Under the pieces are notes generated by a model. It was not told where the DNA came from. It did not search any database and saw nothing but the letters and a program-made list of their open reading frames with translations. 64,000 nt of DNA, from the IMG/VR virus record IMGVR_UViG_3300025133_000024. The stretch is one strand, 5' to 3'. The position numbers were made by a program, and so were the translations under genes. The stretch comes from a virus. Below, piece by piece: positions 1 through 17,719 of this stretch (position 1 is its first letter; each line of letters starts with the position of its first letter).

Positions 1-116
1 GTTTTTTTTTTTCTGTTAGGAAATCTTTGAATTGTTTGTGTGGGTTTTTGGAGATATATTCTTCTTCTTCGATTTGTGGCGGCTCATCATTGTAGAAAAT
101 ATGTTTTAAGAATTGT

Positions 117-950
117 TTATGAGTTTTTCTTTGCATCTGTAACAAAATCCTTCATTTGTTTGTAACCTTCATGAAAAATTTGAATTGCATCTTCTTCAGA
201 AGTTTTGGCTAAATTCATTCTATTATAACTACTATGAAAGTCCAACATGTGAATCGAATCAGGTATTTTTTCAACTTTATACTTAGAAACAATCCTATTA
301 TACATAATTCTTTGCACATAATCAATCAAAGAACTTTGAAACTTGGATGAACCAGTTTTTACAATTCTCATACCAATAATTGAAACATCATCTTCTTCAT
401 GTTCAAAAGCATTAAAAGGTAAATAATATGACCAACCTCCATCAACATAAAGTTCATCACCAATTGATGTTGGGTCAAAAATAAACGGAATTGAACATGA
501 TGCTCTTAATGCCTTTGCTGTTGATAATTCCGGTGTTAATGTAGATGAAAAAACAACATCATCATTCCTCTTCACGTTGGAGGCATAAAGGTAAGTTGGG
601 ATGGAAGCTTCTTTCAGTCTTTCTTTAAAAACGTTTTCAAAATGACTTTCAAGATTGTCTCCCTTTACAAATCCCCATCTTCTAAAGAAATGTAACAAAG
701 AATATCTAACAACACCTTTGTTGTTCACTGGAAGGGTTTGTTTTATTTTCTCTATTAAGGTTTCTTGTTCTCTTTTTATATCTGTTAATGACCATAGACA
801 TGATGCTATTGCTCCACCACTTGTTCCCGCTATTGAAACAATATCATAGTTTTCTTCTTCTAATGCCAATAACCCACCAACGTATAATGGATACAATGCT
901 CCAGAACCAGCCATTATAACTTTAATCTTTTTTTTTGGTGGGTTACTCAT
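117..950 (-). CDS. Patatin-like phospholipase
   Basis: Gly-rich oxyanion loop MAGSGALYP, nucleophile elbow GTSGG, ALRASCSIP, catalytic YVDGG. Confidence 0.92.
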   Translation of the reverse strand: MSNPPKKKIKVIMAGSGALYPLYVGGLLALEEENYDIVSIAGTSGGAIASCLWSLTDIKREQETLIEKIKQTLPVNNKGVVRYSLLHFFRRWGFVKGDNLESHFENVFKERLKEASIPTYLYASNVKRNDDVVFSSTLTPELSTAKALRASCSIPFIFDPTSIGDELYVDGGWSYYLPFNAFEHEEDDVSIIGMRIVKTGSSKFQSSLIDYVQRIMYNRIVSKYKVEKIPDSIHMLDFHSSYNRMNLAKTSEEDAIQIFHEGYKQMKDFVTDAKKNS

Positions 951-1143
951 AAGTTAAAAATTCTCTGATTTTATTATTACCTGTGTCTATGGGCTTACCT
1001 AGGCCACTATCATGTTGAATAAAAACGGTTGACCCAACATATAAAGCCTTTTTATCTTTTAATGGTAAAACTAACCAAAATCTATTCTTATTGCTTAAAG
1101 ATAAAGATACATCACCTTTCTGAAAATAGAAAAATTTACTCAT
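943..1143 (-). CDS. Small paralog-family protein (KKGD...Y-E mini-gene)
   Basis: FQKGDVSL N-terminus, FWLVL, ends FLTYE; overlaps neighbours. Confidence 0.7.
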   Translation of the reverse strand: MSKFFYFQKGDVSLSLSNKNRFWLVLPLKDKKALYVGSTVFIQHDSGLGKPIDTGNNKIREFLTYE

Positions 1144-1333
1144 ACCTTAACCACTCCCTTGTAGAACAAGAATAACGTCCTGATGCCATTTCGTAAACAA
1201 ATTGTATCTTGGTTTTATTTATTTTTGCAAATATAAAATTATCATCCTCTCTAGACAACAAAACCCAAAACACATTTTCTTCGTCTAAAGCCAAACATAT
1301 GTCACCTTTTCCAGGAACAAAATCATTACTCAT
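1136..1333 (-). CDS. Small paralog-family protein
   Basis: Start re-placed at MSNDFVPGKGDICL (ATG 1333 overlaps upstream stop); ends WLRYE. Confidence 0.65.
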   Translation of the reverse strand: MSNDFVPGKGDICLALDEENVFWVLLSREDDNFIFAKINKTKIQFVYEMASGRYSCSTREWLRYE

Positions 1334-1604
1334 TTTTATCACCATATGTGTGAATATCATATGTTTTGTTAAGATGAAGATGATTTTGTGTGTGAATATC
1401 ATATGTTTTGTTAAGATGAAGATGATTTTGATGGTCAACTCTATCATTAAACAGAATCTCTGTTTTTTTTCTTCTTGTTCCTATCCTTAACCAGCCATCT
1501 CCATTATTTTTAGTCTTAAGGCAAATCCAAAGAATAGAAGAAGCAGATGCAATAACCATTTCTCCGTGCTTCATATCATAATAATTATTCATTTTCTTCT
1601 CCAT
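1326..1604 (-). CDS. Small paralog-family protein with in-frame 14-aa duplication
   Basis: MKHGEMVI, ends TYGDKNE; QNHLHLNKTYDIHT occurs twice. Confidence 0.65.
   Translation of the reverse strand: MEKKMNNYYDMKHGEMVIASASSILWICLKTKNNGDGWLRIGTRRKKTEILFNDRVDHQNHLHLNKTYDIHTQNHLHLNKTYDIHTYGDKNE
1347..1430. repeat. Perfect 42-bp tandem duplication
   Basis: tgtgtgaatatcatatgttttgttaagatgaagatgattttg at 1347-1388 and 1389-1430. Confidence 0.95.
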
Positions 1605-1824
1605 TATAAGTTAACCACAATTCTTTTTCGCCAAACTCACCGGCGATTTCAACAATAAAGGGGTTTTCTATAGAGTGATAAAATTTCTCAGATATATACG
1701 AAAAAGGTGATTTAAAAACAAACCACCTGTGAGACTCCTTTTTCGTCTTTAAACAGAGGTGCAAAGTACCGTAAAAAAAATAAATGCTTCCATGGACCGA
1801 GAGTTTGGGTTTGTTTTCTTTCAT
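1585..1824 (-). CDS. Small paralog-family protein
   Basis: HGSIYFF, ends LTYNGEENE; coupled to flanking genes. Confidence 0.6.
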   Translation of the reverse strand: MKENKPKLSVHGSIYFFYGTLHLCLKTKKESHRWFVFKSPFSYISEKFYHSIENPFIVEIAGEFGEKELWLTYNGEENE

Positions 1825-2372
1825 TATTCCTCAAATAGTTTTTCTTGTTTTGATACTTTTTGTGCTCTAATGACATCTTTGGGAAAATTCAAATAACATC
1901 CTTGCCACCCGGCTCTTTTGGCTGTTGGTGGCAAAGGTTTTCTGGGAATCACAAAGGATGGCTTGACATTGGTAGAATGAATAAAGTTAATTTCTTTCAT
2001 GTTTTGATTTTTGTCATATGAAAGAATGAGAATGTGAGATGGTTTTGTTTGGATATGTTTTAGGGTTGTGTTATATTCTGCGGAAATAATCTTTTTTGGT
2101 TGGTTATCAGATTTCCTGAGGAAGGAGCCTTTTTTTATTTTCACTTGAAACTTTGATGAGCAGTGCTGACAAATGACATCCACACTTTTTGTATTAATTC
2201 TTGTTCTTTTTAAAGAGGAGTTATCACAATCGTCGCAACCTTTGTGATAACAAATGGGACAGGATAGATTTTTTTCGACCCATAGTTCTGCGGCTTCTCC
2301 GATAATCCTTGATTGTGTTTTCCAATGTGGATAATGAGTTTTGATTTCCTTTACGCATTTTTTTAAATCCAT
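1824..2372 (-). CDS. DpnI-like (Dam-replacing family) endonuclease, catalytic domain only
   Basis: SRIIGEAAELWV, Zn pairs CPIC and CQHC, D..QVK catalytic motif, IPRKPLPPTAKRAGWQGC closely matches DpnI RKPLAPTARRAGWIGC; no C-terminal winged helix. Confidence 0.85.
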   Translation of the reverse strand: MDLKKCVKEIKTHYPHWKTQSRIIGEAAELWVEKNLSCPICYHKGCDDCDNSSLKRTRINTKSVDVICQHCSSKFQVKIKKGSFLRKSDNQPKKIISAEYNTTLKHIQTKPSHILILSYDKNQNMKEINFIHSTNVKPSFVIPRKPLPPTAKRAGWQGCYLNFPKDVIRAQKVSKQEKLFEE

Positions 2373-2375
2373 TGT

Positions 2376-2648
2376 TTAACCTAATAAGACTTGATTTGTT
2401 TTTTGAAATAGTTCTCTTAGAACACTAATTGATTTAATAACAATAATTTCTTCAGACACACCTCCCTTGTTTATTGTTAGTTGTGATAGGTTATGTTCAG
2501 GGTGCAATATTTCTCTAAGGTTTTCTTTTATAAGTCTTTGTTTGGACGCATTACAGGGTTTTATGTCTACAACAAAATCAGGGTTAACAAGGCGTTCTCT
2601 TATGGAGAAAGCGTTATTTTTTTTATATACTTCAACAATTTCTATCAT
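2376..2648 (-). CDS. Hypothetical protein
   Basis: 90-aa ORF in operon, typical composition. Confidence 0.65.
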   Translation of the reverse strand: MIEIVEVYKKNNAFSIRERLVNPDFVVDIKPCNASKQRLIKENLREILHPEHNLSQLTINKGGVSEEIIVIKSISVLRELFQKTNQVLLG

Positions 2649-2660
2649 TTGTTTTCCCTT

Positions 2661-3002
2661 TTATCCAAAAAGCATTTTTTGTACAATGGTTATTGTTAAC
2701 CCAACAATAGCCGTGATAACAAGCCAATTAAACTTGGTTGTTGAAGATTTCCAAAGCTCTAAAGCTTGAAGTCTCAGAAAGATTCCTTGGTCTCCATTTA
2801 ATTTCTCATCTAAAAGTTTCTTTATTTCTGCTAAAGAAGTTTCAATTGACACTTGATAAGATTCAAACTCTTTAACCATTTTTTGAAGGTTTTTGTTTGT
2901 TTGTTCAGAATTCATCTGAACCCACATTCTCCATTCTCCGAGATTAGCAGGTTTTGTGGGCATAGCTTCTAGATTTCCAGGAGGGAAAGATAAATCATTC
3001 AT
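2661..3002 (-). CDS. Coiled-coil protein with C-terminal TM helix (XhlA/holin-like)
   Basis: Heptad-rich middle, LQALELWK then hydrophobic FNWLVITAIVGLTITIV. Confidence 0.55.
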   Translation of the reverse strand: MNDLSFPPGNLEAMPTKPANLGEWRMWVQMNSEQTNKNLQKMVKEFESYQVSIETSLAEIKKLLDEKLNGDQGIFLRLQALELWKSSTTKFNWLVITAIVGLTITIVQKMLFG

Positions 3003-3469
3003 TGTTTATGCTCCTCTGTACGACTTTTCTTTGATGTTACAACAACTGCTCCTTTAAATTCACCATTTATCAACAAAGGGGCAGATTTTACTTCGAAAAC
3101 AACCTCGACATTATCTTTATCTAAATAAATGGTAGCATGGCTCTTTTTCTGTGTGGTTAAAGTCACAAACCCAGGAATTTCATTTTGTTTAAGAAGTTCT
3201 CCATCCAGATGCTTAAATTGATAATAATCAACCCATTTATCAAAAGTTAAGTCCTTTGGAACTTCAAATCCTAGCCTAATGGATTCTTCATTCTTATAAA
3301 GAATTTGTCCTTTTAAATCTAGAATAAAAATCCCAACAGGGGCACAATTTAAAGCAGATTGCAAAAAGAAGAAATTCTTCACTGTTTCTTCTTCTTTCTT
3401 GTTCAGTTCTCTTAACATATCTATGACAATACAATTATCCATCTTGCAAAATTCTTCCAAAATTATCAT
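2999..3469 (-). CDS. Stand-alone PAS-domain protein
   Basis: LQSALNCAPVGIFILDLKGQILYKN...G...FEVKSAPLLINGEFKGAVVV follows the PAS consensus. Confidence 0.8.
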   Translation of the reverse strand: MIILEEFCKMDNCIVIDMLRELNKKEEETVKNFFFLQSALNCAPVGIFILDLKGQILYKNEESIRLGFEVPKDLTFDKWVDYYQFKHLDGELLKQNEIPGFVTLTTQKKSHATIYLDKDNVEVVFEVKSAPLLINGEFKGAVVVTSKKSRTEEHKQ

Positions 3470-3662
3470 GTCGGACCAGCCAGAACTGACCTCGACACAT
3501 TACTTGCCAAAAAGAATCCTTCATAGATAATATAAGACCCCAGGACGGTTTGTCAAGTGTCAACATAGATAAATTTTTCTGTTTTTTCTTCAAGTTTGAA
3601 GAAAAATTTCTTAACTTAAAATTTTGAGGTAAATAAATTAAATCACCTTTTTTATACGACAT
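3435..3662 (-). CDS. Small paralog-family protein (SH3/KOW-like)
   Basis: MSYKKGDLIYLP, GLIL, WQV, W-V beta-strand pattern. Confidence 0.7.
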   Translation of the reverse strand: MSYKKGDLIYLPQNFKLRNFSSNLKKKQKNLSMLTLDKPSWGLILSMKDSFWQVMCRGQFWLVRHDNFGRILQDG

Positions 3663-3674
3663 ATTGCATTCCCT

Positions 3675-5246
3675 TTAACAAAAACAAATTGAATTTCCAG
3701 TTGTTAACAGCAATCCTCCTGCTGCAACACCATTTTTTAATGCAGACAACAATACCTTTGTTGGCTCAATAATGCCATCATCAATCATAACACATTTTTC
3801 AAGCTTTGAAAAGTTAAATCCCTTTTCATACCCTTCTTCAGATACAAGAAAGTTTCGAATCATATCGAATGACTGATGAGAATTTTGACAGAGTTTTCTC
3901 AACGGATATTGAATGGCTTTCAGTAAAATCTTTTTACCTAACTCTTGTTCTTCTGTTTCCAAAACTTCTTCTTCTAATTCTTTTGAGAGTTTTGTTAATA
4001 CAACTCCACCTCCTGGAACATAGCCCATTTCTTGAGCAGAAATGACAGCCTCTAAAGCATCTTCCACCCTATGTTTCTTTTCTGTCATGGCTGACTCTGT
4101 TAAGCCACCAACCTTGATAATAGCAATTGCTGAGGAGAGTCTTGTAATCCTATCTTGCAATACCTTACAAACACTAAAGTCTCTTTCTTGCTTTATCTCT
4201 TCCCTTAGGGAATTAATCTTTGTCTCAATTTGTTCTAAATCACCTTTACAGCCAACCACTGCTGTTTGATACTTACTTGATTCAACAGACTTTGCTTGAC
4301 CCAATTGCTCGATTTCCACATCCTTCAGAAACATTCCAGACTCTTTTGAGATAAATGTAGCTCCGGTTGCAATACACAAATCTTCTAAAACACTTTTTCT
4401 CTCCGAACCATAACTCGAAATTTTAATCGCACCCGCCTTAATTGTCCCCTTTGCAGCATTTAAATTTAATAAAGCATTTGCTTCACCTTCAATCCCACTA
4501 GCAACAATCACAAGAGGTAAATTAGCACGACTTACCATTTCCATAACATTCCATATCTCCTCAGAAGATTCAATTTTATGGTCTGTTACCAAAATTAAAG
4601 GATTATCATGTTTCATAATTCCTTTTCTTTCATCTGTTATAAAAGAATTAGACACAATCCCGGAGTCAAATACAAACCCCTCAACAATCTCTAAACTTGT
4701 TTCTTCAGTATTTGACTCTTCTACAGAGATAGCTCCTTCCCTACCAACACTCTCAAGGGCCTTTACAACAACGGAGGCAATGGCTTTATCTCCATTAGAG
4801 GAAACCATTGCAATGTCTTCTAATTCCTCTAAGGAGTTGATTGAGAGCGAAATATTTTTAATTTTCTCTTCTAAGAGTTTTAAAGTTGTTTCTATTCCTT
4901 TTTTTATTTCATGTGGATTGTAATTGGAGATTAGATATTTATAACCTTCTTTGAATATCTGACCAGCAATAAGTGTAGACGTTGTGGTTCCATCACCAGC
5001 ATCACTATTTGTTCTCTCTGAGGCTTCTCTAATAATATCAATAGCAGCTTGCTCAAATAGATTCTCACTGTTAACAAATTTGCTAACTGTCACACCATCT
5101 TTCGTTATCAAAGGCAACTTGTCTTTTTGCTTTATAAGGACATTTTTGCCTTTTGGTCCTAATGTTGAACCAACGTTATCCATGAGTTTGTTAATACCTG
5201 TTAAAAATTCATCATATAAAGATGAATCAGACTTATATTCAATCAT
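3675..5246 (-). CDS. groEL: Group I chaperonin GroEL-like
   Basis: TLGPKG, ITKDGVTV, AGDGTTT, VEDAL, GGG motifs; no GGM tail. Confidence 0.95.
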   Translation of the reverse strand: MIEYKSDSSLYDEFLTGINKLMDNVGSTLGPKGKNVLIKQKDKLPLITKDGVTVSKFVNSENLFEQAAIDIIREASERTNSDAGDGTTTSTLIAGQIFKEGYKYLISNYNPHEIKKGIETTLKLLEEKIKNISLSINSLEELEDIAMVSSNGDKAIASVVVKALESVGREGAISVEESNTEETSLEIVEGFVFDSGIVSNSFITDERKGIMKHDNPLILVTDHKIESSEEIWNVMEMVSRANLPLVIVASGIEGEANALLNLNAAKGTIKAGAIKISSYGSERKSVLEDLCIATGATFISKESGMFLKDVEIEQLGQAKSVESSKYQTAVVGCKGDLEQIETKINSLREEIKQERDFSVCKVLQDRITRLSSAIAIIKVGGLTESAMTEKKHRVEDALEAVISAQEMGYVPGGGVVLTKLSKELEEEVLETEEQELGKKILLKAIQYPLRKLCQNSHQSFDMIRNFLVSEEGYEKGFNFSKLEKCVMIDDGIIEPTKVLLSALKNGVAAGGLLLTTGNSICFC

Positions 5247-5255
5247 TATCTTCTC

Positions 5256-6956
5256 TTAATTTTCTTTTATTATTGTGTCTCTTATTAGTTGTTCTATATT
5301 TTTCGAATCTTCTATTGCTTTGATTCCCAACTCCTCAGACAAACCTGATAAAGCGAATTTGTTTAGACTATTTGTTAAGGTCTTTAGTTGTCCAAATAAC
5401 TCAAACAACTTATCGTCCATATGTCTTCTATAAAGATGTGCGATAGTAGATAAACTTCTTGGACCATACTTTATGACCCCAATTTCTTTTACCATCAAAT
5501 CAACATCACCAATGATGTTTCTCCAGATAAATTGTTTTTTGTTTATCACGCCATAAGAATGTGATAGAGCTTGCCAGAACTTTGCAGGGTTGGTGTCCCT
5601 TAACTCTTTAAGAATTTGCAAACTCTTTGATAAAGAAAGATAGTGAGATACAGACTTCTTCTTTTTTTGTTGTTCTTTTATATGGTCTTTGTATTTCTTT
5701 AATAATTCTGATATTGTTTTTGTTGCTTGGTTTGAAAAATATTTTATTAACAATTGAGACTTGTTGCTATAAAGACTATCACCTCTTATCGATAATGTCA
5801 AGATATTATTTATATCTTTTTCATAAAAATCTGTAATAGAGAATGATATGTTTGGGGGGATTTCTGCTTCTTGGTATTCCTCTAAATAAGGAAGTTTTTC
5901 TTCTAACAATTGATTCAATATATCAGAGAAAAGAGTTTTTGATATGTTATTGTCAAAAAATTCATCAATTTGTTTTTTGGCAGGAATATTAGGTGAAATG
6001 TCTAATCCAAGTTTATCAAAGAAATATTTCATTTTGATTCTATGAGTTTGTGAATCATATAATTCTACAAGCTTTTTTTTGTAGTTTTCAAAGAACTTGT
6101 TTTCAAAATCTGTTAATAAATTTTCTTTGTTTTTTTCTAAAAATTCTACAAAAGTCCCGACTTTGATATATCTTTGATTGGCTCCATCTTCAGAACTTTC
6201 CAATTCTTGTTCTGGATGATAATATTCAAATACAGACTTAGGAAGCAATACAAGTTTTTCATAAGTTGGGTTCTTTAGAAATAGATTTAAAAAGGAATCT
6301 TTGTTCACATCTAGTTTGTGAAAATGTAGCCAACCATCTGTACTTTCATGACCCTGAACGCCTACTTTTTTTACTAGAACAAAATTAATTGAATGCTCCG
6401 GGTCCATCCCTCTAAAATCTTTTATCAAATTTTGATAAGAACCTTTAATTTCATCCCTTACAACTGTCTTAAGAGAATAAGGCTTTCTCTCTTTATCATA
6501 AAAATCAATAATTGAACCCTCTTTAACTGGAACAACTTCACCACCTAACACTAAGGATAGAAAAGATTCAAAAGACATTCCAGCGCTTGAAGGGTCAAGA
6601 TTTATAAAGATACTAGTGAGGGATTTTACGAGAACCATAAACCTGAGGAGGGTGGATATTTGTTCTCTTTGTGACCATTCTTTGTTCTTGAAGAATTTTC
6701 CATCCATTAATAAAGCGATGGAAGCTAGTCTATTTTCCAATAAACTACCTGGAACGTCCGAGCTTATATTGTCCACAAAAAGCTCTAATTCTTTTCTTAT
6801 TTCTTCCAAAATTGTTGAGCCGTGTTCCTCTTGTGACCATGCCACTTGGGAAAGTTTTATGTCCGGCGTTCCAGACCAAACCAAAGAAATATGCTTTTGA
6901 TATTCACTTTCAGTCCTTTCAATCAACAACCTTAAGGTTTCATCATTTAATCTCAT
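5256..6956 (-). CDS. Hypothetical protein, possible PD-(D/E)XK-like nuclease
   Basis: 566-aa ORF; SSAGMSFESFL...IIDF...YSLK resembles an E..D..xK nuclease core. Confidence 0.45.
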   Translation of the reverse strand: MRLNDETLRLLIERTESEYQKHISLVWSGTPDIKLSQVAWSQEEHGSTILEEIRKELELFVDNISSDVPGSLLENRLASIALLMDGKFFKNKEWSQREQISTLLRFMVLVKSLTSIFINLDPSSAGMSFESFLSLVLGGEVVPVKEGSIIDFYDKERKPYSLKTVVRDEIKGSYQNLIKDFRGMDPEHSINFVLVKKVGVQGHESTDGWLHFHKLDVNKDSFLNLFLKNPTYEKLVLLPKSVFEYYHPEQELESSEDGANQRYIKVGTFVEFLEKNKENLLTDFENKFFENYKKKLVELYDSQTHRIKMKYFFDKLGLDISPNIPAKKQIDEFFDNNISKTLFSDILNQLLEEKLPYLEEYQEAEIPPNISFSITDFYEKDINNILTLSIRGDSLYSNKSQLLIKYFSNQATKTISELLKKYKDHIKEQQKKKKSVSHYLSLSKSLQILKELRDTNPAKFWQALSHSYGVINKKQFIWRNIIGDVDLMVKEIGVIKYGPRSLSTIAHLYRRHMDDKLFELFGQLKTLTNSLNKFALSGLSEELGIKAIEDSKNIEQLIRDTIIKEN

Positions 6957-6968
6957 AGTTTTAAACTC

Positions 6969-7592
6969 TTACAGAATGGTGTCTACTAAACCCCATTTCT
7001 TAGCTTCTGTTGCATTGAAATAAACATTCTTTCTCTTCTTCAAAAGTCTTTTTAGTTTTGCTTCATTCAAAGATGTGTTTTCTTCAAGAATATCAATATA
7101 CGTCTTTTCCAAAAATCTTGTTTCATCTGCTTCATTTTTGATAATGTCGTAATCTGCCACCAATGCCTCAGAAATCATTACCAAAGGATGAATCATAAAT
7201 CGACAATTCTTCATTGTCTCTCTTTCACTTCCAGCAGATAAAATTAACAAACCAGCAGACATAACCTTTCCAACAGCAATAATTTTTACTGTCGCAACTG
7301 TCTTCAACAACTCAATACAATCAACAATACCAAAAGCATCATATAATGAACCACCATTTGTTGATAATATAATTTCCACCAATGGAGTTTCCATTGGCTC
7401 ATTTTCTTTAATAACAGAATAAATCGAGTATAACGACTCAACAATATCTGCACAAGATGTTTCTTCAATTTCACCAAAAATATTTAATCCGAACTTATTA
7501 TTCTCTTCCAGTTCAAATTCAACATCCTCTTCAATACTATCTTCAACACTACATTCTTCAGTCTCAAGACATTTGTCTTTAGTCATTATCAA
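6969..7592 (-). CDS. clpP: ClpP-like peptidase subunit
   Basis: LSTNGGS, MSAG (Ser nucleophile), FMIHP (His), ATEAKKWGLVD; canonical triad Asp position reads Asn. Confidence 0.85.
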   Translation of the reverse strand: MIMTKDKCLETEECSVEDSIEEDVEFELEENNKFGLNIFGEIEETSCADIVESLYSIYSVIKENEPMETPLVEIILSTNGGSLYDAFGIVDCIELLKTVATVKIIAVGKVMSAGLLILSAGSERETMKNCRFMIHPLVMISEALVADYDIIKNEADETRFLEKTYIDILEENTSLNEAKLKRLLKKRKNVYFNATEAKKWGLVDTIL

Positions 7593-7740
7593 CCACCCTT
7601 AGTTTTTGTTTTAGTATTCTTTGAACAGACTCATTAATTTGTTCACCAGTTACAGGATATAACAAACTCTTCTTCTTTTTTTTATTTAACTCTTCTAAAA
7701 TTATCTCTTTTAATTGTTCCTTCATGATTCCTTCCTTCAT
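7579..7740 (-). CDS. Small protein below ORF-track cutoff
   Basis: My translation MKEGIMKEQLKEIILEELNKKKK...VVDND; stop overlaps clpP start; LKEIILEEL motif. Confidence 0.5.
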   Translation of the reverse strand: MKEGIMKEQLKEIILEELNKKKKKSLLYPVTGEQINESVQRILKQKLRVVDND

Positions 7741-7783
7741 AAAAATAAAGCCCATAGTGCATTATAACACATTATGGGCTTTA
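7741..7783 (-). terminator. Hairpin terminator with extended -10 (TGnTATAAT) in its loop
   Basis: 11-bp IR taaagcccata (7746-7756)/(7773-7783) followed by T5 on minus; TATAAT at 7766-7761. Confidence 0.65.
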
Positions 7784-7819
7784 TAAAAGAATATTTATAT
7801 TCTCCTTAATCGACTTAAA

Positions 7820-8464
7820 TTATTGATTAAATTCAGATGCAATTCTCTGGGAGATATTTTTAACCAATCTATCAACGTCCAGACTTTCTAGAAGTTTTTT
7901 TCTTTTTTGACCTTTCTTCAGGGTATGCATCACACTCTCAGAAAGAGTATCAGCTACATCCTCAGCCAAATCTTCTTCTTCTTTAAGTCTGTGATGTTTA
8001 GAGCCACTCTTGCAACCTTCATTCTTGACATTCCCAGGCGCACCTTGAATATCATGCTCTTGAAGTGCTTCATCATCCAAAATCTCGCCTTCAAGGTCAT
8101 CACCAGCACCACCCATAGCTTGTTCTAGTTGTTTACCAAGCTCGATAATTGTTTGTGCAGTATCTTCGGGAAGTTCAAGTTCAACATCACCTCCCATTCC
8201 TGCGTCCATTCCCAAATCAGGTGGGCCTTCGGCACCAACTTCACCTTCTAGACCTTCAGGAGGTGTTTCACCACCAGCTTCCAATCCTGGACCCATATCA
8301 TCAACTGGGGCATCTTCCAATCCTTCGTCAGAAAGTTCTTCGTCTTCTTCTTCCATCTCGCTGACAAATTGATTCATATAACTTTCAGAAAGTTGTTTTT
8401 GTCCAGACAATTTCATCCAACGTTCTGTGGTCTCTCTACCCAACAATAGTTTCTTCTTTGACAT
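7820..8464 (-). CDS. Highly acidic putative internal head/core protein
   Basis: D/E/G/P-rich; N-terminal ERWMKLSG resembles the scaffold C-terminal RWKKLAG; late-type motif upstream. Confidence 0.55.
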   Translation of the reverse strand: MSKKKLLLGRETTERWMKLSGQKQLSESYMNQFVSEMEEEDEELSDEGLEDAPVDDMGPGLEAGGETPPEGLEGEVGAEGPPDLGMDAGMGGDVELELPEDTAQTIIELGKQLEQAMGGAGDDLEGEILDDEALQEHDIQGAPGNVKNEGCKSGSKHHRLKEEEDLAEDVADTLSESVMHTLKKGQKRKKLLESLDVDRLVKNISQRIASEFNQ

Positions 8465-8624
8465 TACAGTATTTTCTCCTAAATCATTTCTTTGTAAAAT
8501 AAAGTGAAATTAATAGTAAATTTGCTCTGGACATGCCAAAAACAAAAATTCGACACAATTTATCATTAATTAGTTCACAAATTTCAACAAAAGAAACGAT
8601 AAAATAAAATACTACAAAATCATA

Positions 8625-8864
8625 TCAGAATTCAGATAAAAACCCTCTTTTCTTTAATTTTGATAATGCTTTATTATGTATTTTGTAAACTGTTGATAAT
8701 GATAAGCTTAATTTATCTGCTATTTGAACCATATTATGCTCTCCATCATATTCAACAGATACTAAACTACAATTTAAATCTTTGTCTCTTTTAAACCAAT
8801 ACCTACATTTACATTCACCACAAACCTTTTTGTTGTTTAATATTTCTTTTACACATTCTTTCAT
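8625..8864 (-). CDS. Cys-rich sigma-70 region-4-like HTH protein
   Basis: CxxCxC..C followed by MVQIADKLSLSLSTVYKIHNKALSKLK. Confidence 0.7.
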   Translation of the reverse strand: MKECVKEILNNKKVCGECKCRYWFKRDKDLNCSLVSVEYDGEHNMVQIADKLSLSLSTVYKIHNKALSKLKKRGFLSEF

Positions 8865-8873
8865 TTTGTAAAC

Positions 8874-9272
8874 CTAAAATTCCCTATCCAATAAAATAAA
8901 AATATCTTCTTTCTCTTCTTCTGTTAACTCATCATCAAAAAACATTGTGGTTTCAATATTCATTTCTTCTTCCTCCACCAAGGTCTTTCTTTGAACCCTC
9001 TTGAAGTCTTCTTTCTTTTCTTCAGGAATCTGAACATTCAGAAATTCTATTAAAGTCTTGTTTTTATCCAACATACCCTTTAAACAATATTCTAAAAACT
9101 CAATAAGTCTGAAGTTGTATCTGTGCAAGACAGTTAATAACAAAAAATAATCATACTGAGAGAGGGACAAGAAAATCTTTTTGTTTTTTGTCTTGAAGGT
9201 TTTGTTGACTTTTTCCTGCAATAACTGCTTGTCACTTTTCTTTGACATGATGTTTTTATACCCTAACACCAC
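8874..9272 (-). CDS. Hypothetical protein
   Basis: 132-aa ORF in operon, acidic C-terminus. Confidence 0.6.
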   Translation of the reverse strand: MVLGYKNIMSKKSDKQLLQEKVNKTFKTKNKKIFLSLSQYDYFLLLTVLHRYNFRLIEFLEYCLKGMLDKNKTLIEFLNVQIPEEKKEDFKRVQRKTLVEEEEMNIETTMFFDDELTEEEKEDIFILLDREF

Positions 9273-10302
9273 TCTCTAGAAAACCTCCAGATGAAATCTT
9301 AACCCATTCCGCTTTTTCCTGAAGGTCTTTGATTGTTCTCACACCCGAATATGACAAACCAGACCTTAATTGCCTACCAATGTCATCTAATCTATCTTCT
9401 GTTCTTCCTTCGTACTTTACAAGACCAGAAACCCCCTCAAGACTTCTTACTTCACCTCTCCAATCAATTTGAGATTCAGCACTTGACATTCCTCTGTACT
9501 CTTTGTATTTCTTATCATCAATTGTTAAAATTCTTCCTGGTGAGCAATCGGTACATGCCAACATATAACCCAACATCACCATATCCGCACCAGCAGCCAA
9601 ACCCTTTACAATATCACCTGTAGTTTTAAAACCACCATCAGCCAAAAGATAACCACCAACTTCATCCTTAGCTCTTGCACAATCAATAATAGATTGAAAT
9701 GTTGGAATCCCATGTCCAGTGTTAACTCTTGTTGTACAAACCCCTGAACCTCCAATTCCAACCCTTACAATATCAACACCCCAAGAAACCAAATCCTTAT
9801 AAGCTTCATATGTTGCAACATTTCCTGCCATCAACATAATATCGTTTCCATAATGTGCCTTTAACTCTTCAACTGCATTCTGTACCTTGTTGTGATGACC
9901 ATGCGCTACATCAATACAAAATAGCATACAACCCTCAGAATATAATGCAGCCACCCTTTCCATATAATTCTTCTTATCGTTTTTTACCACACCAATAGCA
10001 CAACCAATTCTAACATCAGAGGTATGAGACCACAATCTCTTTTGTTCCTCAATTGTGTTATAACGGTGAATAATACCACCGGCACCATACTTTACAAGTT
10101 GTTCATTCATCTTCTCACTAATGACTCTATCCATTGGCGCTGCAATAATTGGCAAATTATATCCAATCCCCACAGAACCATTATACAAATCAACATTCAG
10201 AGAATTAAACAACTCTTCTCTACTACTAACATCACTATAATGAGGTTGTAACAACACATCATCAAAACATAACACTTCTTTGATCTTCATTTTTTTCTCC
10301 AT
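9256..10302 (-). CDS. IMP dehydrogenase / GMP reductase family (no CBS domains)
   Basis: FDDVLL, PMD, IDVAHGH, MAGNV, VGIGGSGVCTTR, ADGG, YRGM, EGV. Confidence 0.93.
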   Translation of the reverse strand: MEKKMKIKEVLCFDDVLLQPHYSDVSSREELFNSLNVDLYNGSVGIGYNLPIIAAPMDRVISEKMNEQLVKYGAGGIIHRYNTIEEQKRLWSHTSDVRIGCAIGVVKNDKKNYMERVAALYSEGCMLFCIDVAHGHHNKVQNAVEELKAHYGNDIMLMAGNVATYEAYKDLVSWGVDIVRVGIGGSGVCTTRVNTGHGIPTFQSIIDCARAKDEVGGYLLADGGFKTTGDIVKGLAAGADMVMLGYMLACTDCSPGRILTIDDKKYKEYRGMSSAESQIDWRGEVRSLEGVSGLVKYEGRTEDRLDDIGRQLRSGLSYSGVRTIKDLQEKAEWVKISSGGFLESGVRV

Positions 10303-10474
10303 AACTTATAATATTTTCTTCTTTAATAATAAATGTCCATTTTCCACTATCTTCCTCAATAGTTGTTTTCGTTCTTCCCCTCAAAACAATTCTTAAGGTT
10401 TTATCTTTATCAAGTTTAAGATATAAAAAACTCTTTGATCTTGATAATCCAAGTACTCCTTTGTTAAACTTCAT
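10262..10474 (-). CDS. Small paralog-family protein
   Basis: MKFNKGVLGL, near-terminal ISYGEKNED. Confidence 0.6.
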   Translation of the reverse strand: MKFNKGVLGLSRSKSFLYLKLDKDKTLRIVLRGRTKTTIEEDSGKWTFIIKEENIISYGEKNEDQRSVMF

Positions 10475-10563
10475 TATTCGTTTTCTTTAGCAAAAGCTCA
10501 CTTGATATAAATCCAGCGGCACCTTTGGGACCACCACGTGTTCCCTTTTGACAATGAAACTTT

Positions 10564-11088
10564 TTATATACCGCTGTGTCCGAAACCACCTTCTCCTCTT
10601 TTTGTTTCTTTTTTGCCAAAATTTTCTGAGAATTCTAAAACAACAGGTTCAACCTTTTTGAACGATACTTGAGCAATTCTATCACTACTATTCACACAAA
10701 AAGGTTCATCCCCCAAATTAACCAAAATAACCTTCCACTCTCCTTCATAACCTTCATCAATTGTTCCCGGTGTGTTCAAAACTGTCACACCGTTCTTTAT
10801 TGCCAACCCACTTCTTGGTCTTATTTGAGCCTCAAAACCCTCAGGTAAAAAACACTTCAACCCCAAAGGAATTAAAACACGACTCGAAGGTTCAATAACA
10901 ACAGACTCATCCAAACAAGCATATAAATCAAAACAAGCATCCAAATTATCAGACTTTGTTGGGATTCTCGCTTTATCATGAATCTTGTTAATTAACACTT
11001 TAGGAATATTCTCACAACCTTGACAATGGTCTTTTTTACGTTCATGATAACCAAATTTATTACACTTGCTGCATTTTTCTAATCTCAT
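10564..11088 (-). CDS. dut: Trimeric dUTPase with N-terminal Cys4 extension
   Basis: DLYA, RPRSGLA, GTIDEGYEGE, DRIAQ, RGEGGFGHSG. Confidence 0.95.
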   Translation of the reverse strand: MRLEKCSKCNKFGYHERKKDHCQGCENIPKVLINKIHDKARIPTKSDNLDACFDLYACLDESVVIEPSSRVLIPLGLKCFLPEGFEAQIRPRSGLAIKNGVTVLNTPGTIDEGYEGEWKVILVNLGDEPFCVNSSDRIAQVSFKKVEPVVLEFSENFGKKETKRGEGGFGHSGI

Positions 11089-11333
11089 TGTTTTTCTCCG
11101 CTTTTTAAAAATTTTTCTGATTCGAATAAAATTTCTCTAAACTTCCAACTTAAATCGACTCTTGAACTATAAAAGGTAAAAGAACTAAAAGCGCGAAAAT
11201 CTTGAAAATTGTTCTCTATTTCACTCAAAAGTAGATGAACTCTATTAGATTTAGAACAATAAATTAAATCTCCATATGAGAATTTAACTTTATCATTATT
11301 TTGACTCATTGTCAACCTCTTTTTTTTGTTCAT
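11085..11333 (-). CDS. Small paralog-family protein
   Basis: FSYGDLIY...HLLL pattern. Confidence 0.55.
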   Translation of the reverse strand: MNKKKRLTMSQNNDKVKFSYGDLIYCSKSNRVHLLLSEIENNFQDFRAFSSFTFYSSRVDLSWKFREILFESEKFLKSGEKQ

Positions 11334-11535
11334 ATATGTCTCCCAACATATATTGTAAATGCTCTAGCTTGCTTTGATTCTCAGCAATATCCTGAATCAG
11401 TTCATCAACAGATGTTAACAACACTTTATGGTCCTTGATGGAACCAGGATTATTAAATATATGTTCAATCTCGGCAGTGGATTGTGCAATCTCTGATTCA
11501 TATTTTAACTTCAATGCTTTGTAAACAGACTTCAT
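11296..11535 (-). CDS. Small helical hypothetical protein
   Basis: 79-aa ORF, coiled-coil-like. Confidence 0.6.
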   Translation of the reverse strand: MKSVYKALKLKYESEIAQSTAEIEHIFNNPGSIKDHKVLLTSVDELIQDIAENQSKLEHLQYMLGDIYEQKKEVDNESK

Positions 11536-11544
11536 AATCTTCTC

Positions 11545-11760
11545 CTATTCTTTTATTTCCAAAATACTCCAATCACATGCAAAATATCTCTTCCAGAATT
11601 TTGTGTCTAGTGGATGATGTGAACCGTAATTATATAATTCCAAAACCGAACAAAAGGGGCTATATACATAATCATCATTAACAGTATCCAAAATCAGATA
11701 AAAATGTTCATCTCCCAAAATAACATGACCCTTTTTAAACCTTTCTTTTCTTTTGCTCAT
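11545..11760 (-). CDS. Small paralog-family protein
   Basis: FKKGHVIL...FYLIL. Confidence 0.65.
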   Translation of the reverse strand: MSKRKERFKKGHVILGDEHFYLILDTVNDDYVYSPFCSVLELYNYGSHHPLDTKFWKRYFACDWSILEIKE

Positions 11761-11948
11761 ATTTTAACTCCATTTTTGAAAAAACTAAAGTTATTAATAA
11801 AAAAAGAAGATTCCCTTATTTCCTCGAAATATTGTTCTCTTCTCTCAAGTGAAAAAGTGGTTACAATGCCGTTTTTCGCTTGAAGTGCAAGTTCTAAACC
11901 AAAATCGCTATCATACAAGGACAACATACCTTTCTCAATTTTCTTCAC
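11757..11948 (-). CDS. Small paralog-family protein
   Basis: IEKGMLSLY, ends FFKNGVKI. Confidence 0.65.
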   Translation of the reverse strand: MKKIEKGMLSLYDSDFGLELALQAKNGIVTTFSLERREQYFEEIRESSFFINNFSFFKNGVKI

Positions 11949-12151
11949 ATTTCAACTCCGTTTTTGTAAAAAGATATTCCATTAGCAAAAACTTTACTCT
12001 TTTGTATATTATAAAAACCAACACGAAAATCATGCAAGTTTATATAAAACAAGAGAAAGGAATTTTCGCCACAAGAAGGTTTTATAAGCAGTTCAATTTT
12101 TTTATATAATGATTTTTCTGTGGATAACAAACCCTTTTCACATTTTCTCAT
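11945..12151 (-). CDS. Small paralog-family protein
   Basis: CEKGLLS, ends FYKNGVEM. Confidence 0.65.
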   Translation of the reverse strand: MRKCEKGLLSTEKSLYKKIELLIKPSCGENSFLLFYINLHDFRVGFYNIQKSKVFANGISFYKNGVEM

Positions 12152-12384
12152 ATTTTTATTTCCTTCCCATTCTCACAAAATGTAAATTCTTTGTGAAACA
12201 TGTCCTCTTTTCTAAAGGAATCAAGACCACTAGCTTTCTCATCACATGAAAACACTAACACTCTTTCTTCACCAACTTGAACAATAATTTCAACGCCGAA
12301 ATCAGGTCCAAGCAAAGTCATCATTCCAACTTTTAAGTTTCTCATTTTATTTTGCCTCTTTAAGTTTTTGCCAAAATTATTCAT
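12148..12384 (-). CDS. Small paralog-family protein
   Basis: LKVGMMTLL, ends FCENGKEIKI. Confidence 0.65.
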   Translation of the reverse strand: MNNFGKNLKRQNKMRNLKVGMMTLLGPDFGVEIIVQVGEERVLVFSCDEKASGLDSFRKEDMFHKEFTFCENGKEIKI

Positions 12385-15300: not shown

Positions 15301-15913
15301 ATTTAGCAAACACACCAGAAATACAAGTTGTTGTTGCAATCAACCCTTCACTATTCTCTTTCAATAATTGACAATCAATTCTTGGTTTGCGAAAAAAATA
15401 ATCTTCTCTTGTATCATGACTCTTCGAAACAAGATAAAATAAGTTCCTCAGACCAACTTCATTTTGGGCGATAACAAGAAAATGAGCATTGCCAGTTACT
15501 TTGTCTGTGATTTGCTCTCTGTTTTCTTCCTCAAAAACAACGCCCTTTTGCTTCTTTTCTAGTTGCTTCTTTCTCTTTTTGTCTTCAGAGGCTTTGTTGT
15601 ATTCTTCTCTCCAATCAATCACATCATCAATATAATAAAACTCGCAACCATATAGTGGTTTGATTTTCCTTCCTTCTTTTTCCATCTTCTTTGCATGAAG
15701 AACTTGATAAGACAATCCATTCATATTTCCATGGTCTGTTAACGCAATCGCATCCATCCCATTTTCATAAGCAAATTCCAAAAAGTCTCCTGGTTCACCC
15801 AAACCATCATATGGTGAACCAACAGATGAATGACCATGAAGATTAACAAACTTTAATTTAGAATCAATTCTTTTCATTACATTAACTTCCTTTAACAACC
15901 CTATTCGTAACAA
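12377..15913 (-). CDS. dnaE: DNA polymerase III alpha subunit (family C)
   Basis: PHP HGHS/TDHG/GCE, GRGSAAGS, PDIDVD, KFDILG, YGFSKNH, C-terminal OB-like region. Confidence 0.97.
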   Translation of the reverse strand: MLRIGLLKEVNVMKRIDSKLKFVNLHGHSSVGSPYDGLGEPGDFLEFAYENGMDAIALTDHGNMNGLSYQVLHAKKMEKEGRKIKPLYGCEFYYIDDVIDWREEYNKASEDKKRKKQLEKKQKGVVFEEENREQITDKVTGNAHFLVIAQNEVGLRNLFYLVSKSHDTREDYFFRKPRIDCQLLKENSEGLIATTTCISGVFAKLVWMNPEATQEELLKMMQPYLQKFIDIFGKDRFFGELQWNAIKEQHVLNQCIIELCKRNGLKLISTVDYHYARPELWRARETYKRLGFLGRDKKPEWISKEIPETIDGMDYELYPKNGDQMFEDYRKYSERMGFKYDDDVIIRSIENTHRIAHNMVESFYPNTDIKLPTFVVPDGVDANEMLREKCFVKLEEKGFGQKYKERLEEELEVLKNNNFAEYFLTKDRIVQEIRKTQLMGGGRGSAAGSLIAYLLDITEIDPLKWGTMFSRFLRSDSDSMPDIDVDCEEPARIKEHLVEEWGQERVALISNMTTLQLKSIVKDVSRLHEIPFSEVNPVTGKMIREATTKAKKKHGIKAGVYVPTWEEVLEYSDSLKKFLKKYPHVQTYIKSLIGQKKASSVHAGGLLVSENLFETMPLIRSKGKMQTPWCEGQNVRHLEPFGFIKFDILGIASLRMIRDCISHILRRHYDIENPTFEDVKHFYDEFLHPDVIDHNDQRVYEHVYHKGNFAGTFQFTESGVQKFSQQVKPISIMEGSAVTSTYRPGPMDGNVPDMYLEGKYKEYKRKYYNDIHKKITEDTYSFLIFQEQISSLVSGLSKYLSEEDGHTIRKLFTKKEKGGARIDTSSITDPFIKQLLQRDLGLETAKKLKEYYERFEKGCLENNMKIDEIRELWENIAAFAGYGFSKNHAIPYFFLSFQCAWLYTYYPVEWVAAFLDKEPEDKKEQAINVAKRANMDIEDVDINLSNMFWDIIDEKTVIQPLTGIKGLGEKAVQEILSHRPFYTIEDLLFNERISYRRLNKRSLDVLTRSGTLNCLMDARFEHMRHFWLSVVDNRPGNQEELLENIEKFKYEDDFTTQQKIDFKVELSGLFPFSTVITKDVEKRLLKSNIPSLTHYDNEHGVVWCIAREVTPRKTAKGKTYWIVNCIDSYGGQEDVKIWGIHPSDTLDLNRPLMIYLEYCPKWGYSTRTLRSNMKYLDE

Positions 15914-16101
15914 GAGATTTTTACATGAAATGCTCTTGCAGTGTGAGCGTATTTTTGAACATAAATTTTGTTATTGTCAAGAGCAATATTCAACACTTGA
16001 GAATCCCCCAAACTCAAAAGAAGTGCGGAAGCTGATAGCAATATTGTACCTTTTTTCAAATCCTTAACACGTTTACTGAAGGTCTTAAACTTACGCTTCA
16101 T
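15901..16101 (-). CDS. Small paralog-family protein
   Basis: VKDLKKGTILL; sister of 16320..16532. Confidence 0.65.
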   Translation of the reverse strand: MKRKFKTFSKRVKDLKKGTILLSASALLLSLGDSQVLNIALDNNKIYVQKYAHTARAFHVKISCYE

Positions 16102-16120
16102 TATATCTCCTTGCTATTGA

Positions 16121-17718: not shown

Positions 17719-17719
17719 T

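What the first reader, a model, noticed from the sequence alone, without database searches (positions are those of the whole stretch)
1824..2372. Phage-encoded DpnI-type methyl-GATC nuclease in a genome segment nearly devoid of GATC
Seen: the ORF reproduces the DpnI catalytic domain (Zn CxxC pairs, D..QxK, RKPLPPTAKRAGW.GC) without the winged helix. Seen: scanning by eye I found only about 12 GATC sites in 64 kb (near 10282, 10437, 14996, 16219, 16666, 33894, 36445, 36472, 41281, 42723, 43321, 52097), although GATT, GATA and GATG are abundant. My rough mononucleotide expectation is well over 100. Five of the 12 sit in fast-evolving mini-genes. Known: DpnI cuts only Gm6ATC, the mark made by Dam. 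Inference: the phage may shred Dam-methylated host or competitor DNA for nucleotides while purging GATC from its own genome so host Dam cannot mark it, an inverted restriction strategy.
Basis: partly seen in the sequence, partly recalled or inferred. Interest (0 to 1): 0.82.

Follow-up and report, generated by a model that had tools for sequence, protein, structure and literature searches.

The report
Phage methyl-GATC nuclease, GATC-purged genome
An uncultured ~180-kb marine phage carries a stripped-down relative of the enzyme DpnI, which cuts only methylated GATC, and has removed almost every GATC from its own DNA; only the phage lineages that carry the gene show the purge, which suggests the phage uses a methyl mark on other DNA as the cutting target and stays safe by lacking the site.

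Summary
Both observations hold.

**The gene.** ORF 1824-2372 (-), 182 aa, belongs to Pfam DpnI (PF06044, E 2.4e-28) and folds like the DpnI catalytic domain (TM 0.70 to 4kyw). It keeps the zinc cysteines, D65/Q76/K78, the methyl cleft (L147, R153, W156) and the G:C-reading residues (N60, R144, R153). It has no winged-helix domain. Q in place of DpnI's Glu64 is the majority state in the family (106 of 150), so it does not indicate decay.

**The depletion.** The window has exactly the 12 GATC sites listed, against about 173 expected (146 ± 9 after synonymous shuffling). GATC is the most depleted of all 256 tetramers.

**Co-occurrence.**
- Four divergent phage lineages carry the gene at the same locus, and all are purged (O/E 0-0.18).
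- The two nearest relatives have an empty site and are not purged (0.66, 1.11).
- Eighty more distant relatives are not purged, and five near-complete genomes among them lack the gene.
- This amounts to about one phylogenetic contrast.
- Giant-virus and cellular carriers mostly keep normal GATC, as expected for a methyl-dependent enzyme.

**Reading (about 0.55).** An active Gm6ATC nuclease attacks methylated host or competitor DNA, and the phage's own lack of sites gives immunity. The host, its methylation status and the enzyme's activity are untested. Host restriction may have driven the purge.

The scan has recorded GATC-purged phages before, but none with this gene.

The parts
1824..2372 (-). 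Catalytic-domain-only DpnI-family nuclease gene (182 aa). Key residues: cysteines C38/C41, C46/C49, C68/C71; D65, Q76, K78; R144, L147, R153, W156; N60.
   Evidence: Pfam PF06044 E 2.4e-28. PDB DpnI E 1e-16 with residue mapping. AF2 model pLDDT 87.9, best PDB match 4kyw_A at E 9e-13, TM 0.70. These residues are invariant in alignments A1 and A3.
2376..2648 (-). Conserved 90-aa gene just upstream. It marks one edge of the indel that holds the nuclease gene.
   Evidence: It is orthologous to the gene that directly abuts patatin in the gene-less relatives L096 and L097 (BLASTP E 4e-17 and 2e-19, with the gene maps).
943..1824 (-). Three small ORFs (79, 103 and 66 aa) between the nuclease gene and patatin. 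They belong to the dispersed mini-gene family and lie inside the same indel.
   Evidence: ORF list. The segment is absent from L096 and L097, shorter in L003, and a single 73-aa ORF in L145.
117..950 (-). Patatin-like phospholipase gene, the other conserved edge of the indel.
   Evidence: Pfam PF01734 E 4.8e-23. It is syntenic in L003, L099, L145, L096 and L097.
1..64000 (.). GATC-purged genome segment. The 12 residual sites are at 10282, 10437, 14996, 16219, 16666, 33894, 36445, 36472, 41281, 42723, 43321 and 52097.
   Evidence: Exact counts, Markov model, ranking of all 256 tetramers, codon-context tables and synonymous shuffle.
3529..3556 (-). Best sigma-70-like promoter match (TTGACA-16-TATATT) upstream of the tightly packed block 3469..1585 that contains the nuclease gene. 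This is a hint of early, host-polymerase transcription.
   Evidence: It matches 11 of 12 positions, but the number of promoter-like hits in the region is no higher than in shuffles, so the evidence is weak.
9256..28258 (-). Context: nucleotide-metabolism and DNA-processing genes that could use breakdown products. They are IMPDH/GMP-reductase family 9256-10302, dUTPase/DCD 10564-11088, ThyX 19179-19916, class II RNR with intein 22312-25293, and 5'-3' exonuclease 27314-28258.
   Evidence: Pfam scans. The link to the nuclease is inference only.

Best explanation
The ORF encodes an active, monomeric, zinc-bearing PD-(D/Q)xK endonuclease of the DpnI family that cuts GATC only when both adenines are N6-methylated. 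The phage expresses it inside the infected cell. There it cuts whatever DNA carries that mark. The most likely target is the chromosome of a host that methylates GATC, through an orphan Dam or the methylase of a GATC restriction system. A co-infecting phage that methylates GATC would also be cut. The phage's own DNA is nearly immune because synonymous codon choice has removed about 93% of its GATC sites.

Loss of the winged-helix domain should make the enzyme poor at cutting hemimethylated sites, so the few remaining sites on freshly replicated phage DNA would be spared.

Shown here: family membership, fold, conserved catalytic, methyl-pocket and GATC-reading residues, the depth and specificity of the purge, and the co-occurrence of gene and purge within one phage clade.

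Inferred: enzymatic activity, methyl-dependence, host methylation, the identity of the target DNA, and which trait came first.
For: **Family and fold.** PF06044 at 99.4 bits. AF2 model pLDDT 87.9, best PDB match DpnI 4kyw at TM 0.70.

**Residue mapping to published DpnI roles.** The mapping comes; the roles come from PMC4117772.
- Catalytic: D53->D65, E64->Q76, K66->K78.
- Methyl cleft: L129->L147, R135->R153, W138->W156.
- G:C readout: N48->N60, R126->R144, R135->R153.
- All are invariant or nearly so in the clade.
- In the 150 best family representatives the counts are D 140, K 144, L 145, R 140, W 138. The Glu64 position is Q in 106 and E in 38.

**Published work on DpnI.** The isolated DpnI catalytic domain cuts Dam-methylated DNA but not unmethylated DNA. 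Some winged-helix mutants lose cleavage of hemimethylated DNA (PMC3424567).

**Specific purge.** O/E is 0.07, with 10 sites in genes against 146 +/- 9 after synonymous shuffling.

**Co-occurrence.**
- Four divergent phage lineages carry the gene at the same locus (41-48% identity to the window protein). Their GATC O/E values are 0.07, 0.00, 0.15-0.18 and 0.06.
- The two nearest relatives have a clean empty site and O/E 0.66 and 1.11.
- Eighty further relatives have no family gene within 10 kb of Cpn60 and O/E 0.55-1.28.
- Five of those, 94-100% complete, have no PF06044 gene anywhere.

**Carriers with normal GATC.** 75 cellular loci with an expectation of at least 30 sites have median O/E 0.97 and none below 0.3. 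Many giant-virus loci are also near 1. This is as expected if the enzyme ignores unmethylated GATC.

**Availability of targets.** Gm6ATC was the methylated motif detected in the most prokaryotic MAGs in a marine metaepigenome study (PMC8919816).

**No methylase seen.** No DNA methyltransferase was found among the window ORFs of 150 aa or more that were scanned.
Against: - No biochemical data exist for any QxK, catalytic-only member of the family.
- The host is unknown, so GATC methylation of the host is an assumption.
- The gene-plus-purge pattern fits one gain, or one gain and one loss, in a clade of five. Monophyly of the carriers has only 50/8.5 support, so there is statistically about one independent contrast. 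A shared host with a GATC restriction enzyme could explain the purge without any role for the nuclease.
- GATC-purged phages without this gene are common (earlier scan notes).
- Twelve sites remain in 64 kb and would be lethal if fully methylated and cut.
- Only about 72 kb of the ~180-kb genome was seen, so a phage methylase or a second nuclease elsewhere is not excluded.
- Earlier scan notes report DpnI-family genes coupled to methylases in some bacteria. Methyl-dependence is therefore not guaranteed for every member.
Confidence: 0.55

Rival explanations
1. The nuclease is active and methyl-GATC specific, but its job is to exclude competitors. It destroys co-infecting phages or other mobile DNA that carry Dam-type methylation, much as proposed for the archaeal-virus enzyme HHPV4I and for marseillevirus R-M systems. 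Host DNA is not the main target.
For: HHPV4I, a Gm6ATC-dependent enzyme from an archaeal virus, was interpreted as virus-versus-virus exclusion (PMC10101028). Marseillevirus GATC R-M does not degrade host DNA and is proposed to exclude rival viruses (PMC7253447). Most carriers of this short form are giant viruses of eukaryotes, where a Dam-methylated host chromosome is unlikely. Some marine phycodnavirus and phage genomes are GATC-methylated (PMC8919816).
Against: This reading does not by itself explain why the phage carriers, unlike most giant-virus and cellular carriers, must purge GATC. That would require that something in the cell also methylates the carrier's own DNA, which brings back a methylating host or co-infecting phage. 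The phage has a rich nucleotide-salvage gene set, which fits recycling of host DNA.
Confidence: 0.2
2. The purge is ordinary restriction-site avoidance, imposed by a host enzyme of the MboI, DpnII or Sau3AI type that cuts unmethylated GATC. The nuclease gene plays no part in it. It is a passenger, or it was acquired later simply because it is harmless in a GATC-poor genome.
For: GATC avoidance is a well-known phage response to restriction. This scan has recorded it repeatedly in phages without this gene, including an uncultured phage of marine Flavobacteriales (e1-3285306 and e1-3259639). The closest isolated phages by major capsid protein and chaperonin infect Flavobacterium. Bacteria with DpnI-like enzymes often alternate with DpnII-like systems, and 38 of 42 such genomes under-represent GATC (PMC4687349). 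The carriers may share one host lineage.
Against: By chance alone, the one tetramer purged would have to be the recognition site of the one restriction-type nuclease family found at a clade-specific indel. The gene has been kept, with every functional residue intact, across lineages that have diverged to about 45% identity. A host with such an R-M system methylates its own GATC, so an active nuclease would still attack host DNA and the two traits would still be functionally linked.
Confidence: 0.15
3. The protein is not a methyl-GATC nuclease. Either Q76 abolishes catalysis and it is a DNA binder or regulator, or its specificity has drifted. GATC loss would then come from another cause, such as MutH nicking in a gammaproteobacterial host.
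For: Glu64, a metal ligand in DpnI, is replaced by Gln. No QxK member has been assayed. MutH-driven counter-selection of GATC has been proposed for enterobacterial phages (mentioned in PMC4687349).
Against: Q is the majority residue at that position across the family, including long forms with a C-terminal domain. D, K, the zinc cysteines, the methyl cleft and the guanine-reading arginines are all conserved. From my own knowledge, HinP1I uses a D..QxK site, so Gln is compatible with catalysis. The capsid and chaperonin affinities do not point to an enterobacterial-type host.
Confidence: 0.1

Closest known systems
R.DpnI of Streptococcus pneumoniae (type IIM; PDB 4esj, 4kyw)
   Same: Same Pfam family and same fold. 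It shares the two CxxC zinc motifs, the catalytic Asp and Lys, the methyl-binding cleft (Leu, Arg, Trp) and the guanine-reading Arg, Arg and Asn.
   Different: The phage protein has no C-terminal winged-helix domain (182 aa, against 254 numbered residues in the papers). It has Gln in place of the metal-binding Glu64. The phage clade has an extra 8-residue insertion that adds a third Cys pair. It is encoded by a large virulent-looking phage rather than serving as a cellular defence. Its activity is untested.
HHPV4I, the m6A-dependent endonuclease of archaeal virus HHPV4 (PMC10101028)
   Same: It is virus-encoded, and it recognises Gm6ATC. [quoted passage not shown]
   Different: It has an unrelated architecture (SRA + winged helix + HNH) and cuts 4-20 nt away from the site. 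Whether HHPV4's own genome avoids GATC was not looked up here.
Host-DNA degradation with self-immunity in T4 (endonucleases II and IV against cytosine DNA, phage DNA protected by hydroxymethylcytosine) and in chloroviruses (virion restriction enzymes with a cognate methylase)
   Same: The logic is the same. A viral nuclease discriminates host DNA from viral DNA by a chemical mark and feeds nucleotide recycling or shuts the host off. The chlorovirus role is cited in PMC7253447. The T4 case is from my own knowledge.
   Different: In those systems the virus modifies its own DNA to be safe. Here the mark would sit on the victim's DNA, and the virus is safe because it lacks the site. The logic is inverted and needs no modification enzyme.
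Restriction-site (GATC) avoidance in phage and bacterial genomes (Rusinov et al. 2015, PMC4687349)
   Same: Strong, site-specific under-representation achieved by synonymous changes. That paper also reports GATC under-representation in 38 of 42 bacterial genomes that encode DpnI-like enzymes.
   Different: Here the avoidance is in a phage that carries the methyl-directed enzyme itself, and it tracks the gene's presence within one phage clade.

Membership tests
DpnI family (Pfam PF06044; type IIM R.DpnI) | Significant match to the family profile | tested here: met
   99.4 bits against a cut-off of 26.7, E 2.4e-28, residues 16-163 on profile positions 12-147. phmmer to PDB DpnI gives E 1e-16.
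DpnI family (Pfam PF06044; type IIM R.DpnI) | Fold of the DpnI PD-(D/E)XK catalytic domain | tested here: met
   AF2 model pLDDT 87.9, pTM 0.82. The top Foldseek hit is 4kyw_A at E 9e-13, TM 0.70, 30% identity. The next hits are NhoI, Eco15I and PvuII.
DpnI family (Pfam PF06044; type IIM R.DpnI) | Catalytic Asp53 / Glu64 / Lys66 | tested here: inconclusive
   D65 and K78 are present, but Glu64 is replaced by Q76. Q is invariant in the viral clade and is the majority state in the family, 106 Q to 38 E among 150 representatives. Whether a QxK site is catalytically competent in this family has not been tested.
DpnI family (Pfam PF06044; type IIM R.DpnI) | Zinc site made of two CxxC motifs | tested here: met
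   C46/C49 and C68/C71 align to the DpnI cysteines. The phage clade has a further C38/C41 pair.
DpnI family (Pfam PF06044; type IIM R.DpnI) | Methyl-binding cleft Leu129 / Arg135 / Trp138 | tested here: met
   L147, R153 and W156 are invariant in A1 and A3 and conserved in 145, 140 and 138 of 150 family representatives. The residue roles come from PMC4117772.
DpnI family (Pfam PF06044; type IIM R.DpnI) | G:C readout residues Asn48, Arg126, Arg135 | tested here: met
   N60, R144 and R153 align to them and are invariant or nearly so. Ser17 and Gln18 of the N-terminal helix could not be mapped with confidence.
DpnI family (Pfam PF06044; type IIM R.DpnI) | C-terminal winged-helix Gm6ATC-binding domain | tested here: not met
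   The protein ends about 20 residues after the conserved GWQGC, and the tail has low pLDDT. Short forms are the majority among the 150 best family representatives. It is therefore a member of the catalytic-domain family but not a full DpnI-type two-domain enzyme.
DpnI family (Pfam PF06044; type IIM R.DpnI) | Cleavage of Gm6ATC but not of unmethylated GATC | not testable with these tools
   Support is indirect only. The isolated DpnI catalytic domain behaves this way (PMC3424567), and most carriers of the short form keep normal GATC content.
Restriction-site avoidance in phages | One site strongly and specifically under-represented against composition-aware nulls | tested here: met
   O/E 0.07. 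GATC is the lowest of 256 tetramers. Genes hold 10 sites against 146 +/- 9 after synonymous shuffling.
Restriction-site avoidance in phages | A host enzyme that cuts the avoided site | not testable with these tools
   The host is unknown. The nearest isolates by capsid protein and chaperonin infect Flavobacterium, at only 37-44% identity.
Viral host-DNA-degrading nuclease with self-immunity (T4 EndoII/IV, chlorovirus R-M) | A viral nuclease, viral DNA that is not a substrate, and host DNA degraded during infection | tested here: inconclusive
   The nuclease gene and the near-absence of sites in the viral DNA are shown. Host DNA degradation cannot be tested here.

The most novel reading that the evidence does not exclude
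A previously unrecognised viral strategy of inverted restriction. A small, widespread clade of catalytic-domain-only DpnI enzymes, shared by marine phages and giant viruses, uses the Gm6ATC mark on host or rival DNA as a 'non-self' tag. Viruses that replicate where GATC gets methylated pay for the weapon by purging GATC from their whole genome. Loss of the winged-helix domain would be an adaptation that restricts cutting to fully methylated sites and so spares newly replicated viral DNA.
Probability: 0.4. Interest if true: 0.8.

Novelty: new variant of a known kind. Interest (0 to 1): 0.62.

Why it matters
If the enzyme is active and methyl-dependent, this would be a phage that turns another genome's methyl mark into a target. 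In a host with a GATC restriction system, that mark is the host's own self-label. The phage would protect itself by deleting the site rather than by modifying its DNA. That adds a new branch to the known ways viruses tell self from host DNA.

It also gives a second explanation, besides restriction evasion, for extreme GATC avoidance in some phages.

It links phages and giant viruses through one shared nuclease clade. The family is small, with only 279 clusters among 1.84 billion representatives.

On the practical side, a natural 160-180-aa catalytic-only DpnI that may ignore hemimethylated DNA could be a useful reagent. The idea can be tested with one purified protein and dam+ and dam- DNA.

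Tried and rejected
- **INPHARED phage records.** Megablast of 8 kb and tblastn of the nuclease found no match. No deposited phage genome has this gene or this phage.
- **Single-protein scans of viral contigs.** Scans with the nuclease and with Cpn60 found nothing. Alignment-based scans were needed.
- **Whole genome.** None is held for the window, so genome-wide GATC counts and a full search for a methylase were not possible. A PF02086 (Dam-type methylase) search ran only on the 26%-complete L099 record and found nothing. The giant-virus records were not held.
- **Host identification.**
  - The genome-contig scan returned only cellular homologues of the nuclease: Eremiobacterota, Brevundimonas, Thaumarchaeota, Akkermansia and a marine group III euryarchaeote SAG.
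  - L154, L232, L168 and L221 were checked against the window proteins and share only the nuclease.
- **Promoter scan.** It gave one near-consensus site upstream of the gene block, but the hit counts were no higher than in shuffles.
- **Residual sites in mini-genes.** The idea that the remaining GATC sites cluster in fast-evolving mini-genes was checked. Four of 10 genic sites lie in 18% of the coding bases, which is not significant.
- **Q76 as a sign of decay.** Considered and rejected, because Q is the majority state in the family.

Full report
**What the window is.** All large ORFs lie on the minus strand. They include:
- a T4-type major capsid protein, tail sheath, tail tube and baseplate proteins;
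- DnaE-type DNA polymerase, DnaB-like helicase, RecA-like protein and a 5'-3' exonuclease;
- class II ribonucleotide reductase with an intein, ThyX, dUTPase/DCD and a GMP-reductase/IMPDH-family enzyme;
- ClpP, a GroEL-type chaperonin, a patatin-like lipase and three tRNAs.

The nuclease protein occurs, identical, on metagenome contigs of up to 188 kb. The window is therefore part of a large uncultured myophage at 33% G+C. No deposited phage is close. The nearest isolates by capsid protein and chaperonin are Flavobacterium phage 'immuto', Microcystis phage Mel-JY01 and Rhodothermus phage RM378, at 37-46% identity.

**The ORF.**
- Position 1824-2372 (-) encodes 182 aa.
- It matches Pfam DpnI (PF06044) at 99.4 bits, and R.DpnI in the PDB at E 1e-16 over part of the catalytic domain only.
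- An AlphaFold model built on 17 homologues has pLDDT 87.9. Its best PDB match is the DNA-bound DpnI structure 4kyw (E 9e-13, TM 0.70). Other PD-(D/E)XK restriction enzymes follow far behind.

I mapped the alignment onto the residue roles published for DpnI (PMC4117772):

| Role in DpnI | DpnI residues | Phage protein |
|---|---|---|
| Catalytic | Asp53 / Glu64 / Lys66 | D65 / Q76 / K78 |
| Zinc site | CxxC pairs | present |
| Methyl cleft | Leu129 / Arg135 / Trp138 | L147 / R153 / W156 |
| Guanine and cytosine readout | Asn48 / Arg126 / Arg135 | N60 / R144 / R153 |

All of these are invariant or nearly so among the close homologues. The one departure is Gln for the metal-binding Glu.

An exhaustive search of 1.84 billion cluster representatives found only 279 family members. 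Among the best 150, that position is Q in 106 and E in 38, in both long and short forms. Asp, Lys, the cysteines and the Leu/Arg/Trp cleft are conserved in 137-145 of the 150. Q76 is therefore the family norm and not a lesion.

There is no winged-helix domain. Short forms are the majority in the family. Published work shows that the isolated DpnI catalytic domain still cuts Dam-methylated but not unmethylated DNA. It also shows that some winged-helix mutants lose cleavage of hemimethylated DNA (PMC3424567).

**The depletion.**
- The expectation is 173 (Markov) to 192 (composition). It is 146 +/- 9 inside genes when synonymous codons are shuffled, against 10 observed.
- GATC is the lowest of all 256 tetramers (O/E 0.07). 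The next is GGCC at 0.48.
- Codon-context tables show avoidance in every frame. Asp switches from GAT to GAC before C. ATC is avoided after G. TCN Ser is avoided after xGA. GGA never precedes TC.

This is selection on the DNA word itself.

**Does the purge go with the gene?**
- The nuclease gene sits between a conserved 90-aa gene and the patatin gene.
- Four divergent phage lineages carry it at the same place: the window phage, L003, L099/L143/L144 and L145. Their nuclease proteins are 41-48% identical to the window's. They share an 8-residue Cys-containing insertion that the giant-virus homologues lack.
- Their GATC O/E values are 0.07, 0.00, 0.15-0.18 and 0.06.
- The two closest relatives, L096 and L097, have the orthologous 90-aa gene directly abutting patatin, which is a clean empty site. 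Their O/E values are 0.66 and 1.11 at the same 33% G+C.
- Eighty more distant relatives found through the chaperonin have no family gene within 10 kb and O/E 0.55-1.28. Five of them are 94-100% complete genomes with no PF06044 gene anywhere.
- A five-marker tree puts the three carriers tested and the two non-carriers in one clade (100/100). It leaves the order unresolved, with carrier monophyly at 50/8.5.

Honestly counted, though, this is about one evolutionary contrast, maintained over deep divergence.

**Other carriers.**
- Most close homologues are on giant-virus contigs, recognisable by Rpb1, kinases, ubiquitin, HMG-box, an ammonium transporter and GVMAG names. Their GATC O/E ranges from 0.13 to about 1.5, and most are near 1.
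- Eighty loci from bacterial and archaeal genomes have median O/E 0.97, with none below 0.3 among loci with an expectation of at least 30 sites.

An enzyme that sits in many GATC-rich genomes cannot be cutting unmethylated GATC, unless each of those genomes protects itself some other way. This fits methyl-dependence. It also shows that carrying the gene does not by itself force a purge. A purge is expected only where the carrier's own DNA gets methylated.

**Mechanism proposed.**
- The enzyme cuts fully methylated GATC, and the phage genome offers almost no sites.
- In an infected cell whose DNA is GATC-methylated, the host chromosome would be fragmented about every few hundred bases. The phage's exonuclease, reductase and thymidylate genes could then use the products. 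That last step is inference.
- In a marine metaepigenome study, Gm6ATC was the methylated motif detected in the most prokaryotic MAGs, and some marine viruses carry it too (PMC8919816).
- A role in excluding methylated competitor phages is equally compatible with the sequence data. It has precedent in HHPV4I and in marseilleviruses.

**What cannot be decided.** The data do not show whether the purge evolved to avoid self-cutting or to evade a host GATC restriction enzyme. In the latter case the host's protective methylation is exactly what would make the nuclease useful, so the traits would still be linked through the host. GATC avoidance alone is common in phages (PMC4687349; earlier scan notes). 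The residual 12 sites, the unseen 60% of the genome, and the lack of any assay of a QxK short form are the main weaknesses.

**Verdict.**
- The enzyme is a member of the DpnI catalytic-domain family. It is not a full two-domain DpnI.
- The pairing of a methyl-directed nuclease with a site-purged phage genome is a new variant of known viral strategies for telling self from host DNA. I found no description of it in the papers searched.

Noticed in passing
L004-L013, L101, L105-L130 (giant-virus contigs): The closest homologues of the phage nuclease are mostly in giant viruses of eukaryotes (GVMAG records; neighbours include Rpb1, kinases, ubiquitin, HMG-box, an ammonium transporter and Tet/JBP). 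A phage and giant viruses share one small nuclease clade with the same D..QxK site.
   Followed up: partly
L108, L109, L111 (about 160-kb giant-virus MAG); L114, L115, L126: A minority of giant-virus carriers are themselves GATC-depleted (O/E 0.13, and 0.33-0.34), while most are near 1.0. This would be a second, independent place to test the link between gene and purge.
   Followed up: no
window 1824-2372; L003, L099: The phage versions share an 8-residue insertion that gives C-x2-C-x4-C-x2-C, a third Cys pair next to the zinc site. It is absent from the giant-virus and cellular homologues.
   Followed up: partly
window 3675-5246 and orthologues in L003: The chaperonin of the gene-carrying lineages sits on very long branches (1.65 and 1.14 substitutions per site, against 0.24-0.49 in the gene-less sisters) and has an unusual amino-acid make-up.
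   Followed up: no
window 943-1824, 3435-3662 and elsewhere: Many small ORFs of 55-100 aa share a similar pattern (KGD... W-x-VL ... ending in YE/YGE) and are packed between core genes with overlapping stop and start codons. Three of them lie in the same indel as the nuclease gene.
   Followed up: no
window 22312-25293; L096 6243-7787: The class II ribonucleotide reductase carries an intein. In relative L096 the IMPDH/GMP-reductase-family gene also carries an intein, and its DnaE polymerase is called as two ORFs.
   Followed up: no
window 33648-33870: Three adjacent tRNA genes (Asn-GTT, Gly-TCC, Thr-TGT) lie on the minus strand. One of the 12 residual GATC sites (33894) lies just beside them.
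   Followed up: no
L154 (contig of a marine group III euryarchaeote single-cell genome), L232 (Poseidoniales MAG): The best cellular match to the phage nuclease (38% identity) is in marine group III Euryarchaeota. A marine metaepigenome paper reports GATC methylation across archaeal MAGs. These contigs share no other gene with the window.
   Followed up: partly
window, whole: GGCC is the second most depleted tetramer (O/E 0.48), and it is also mildly low in relatives (0.61-0.79). This may be the trace of a HaeIII-type host enzyme.
   Followed up: no
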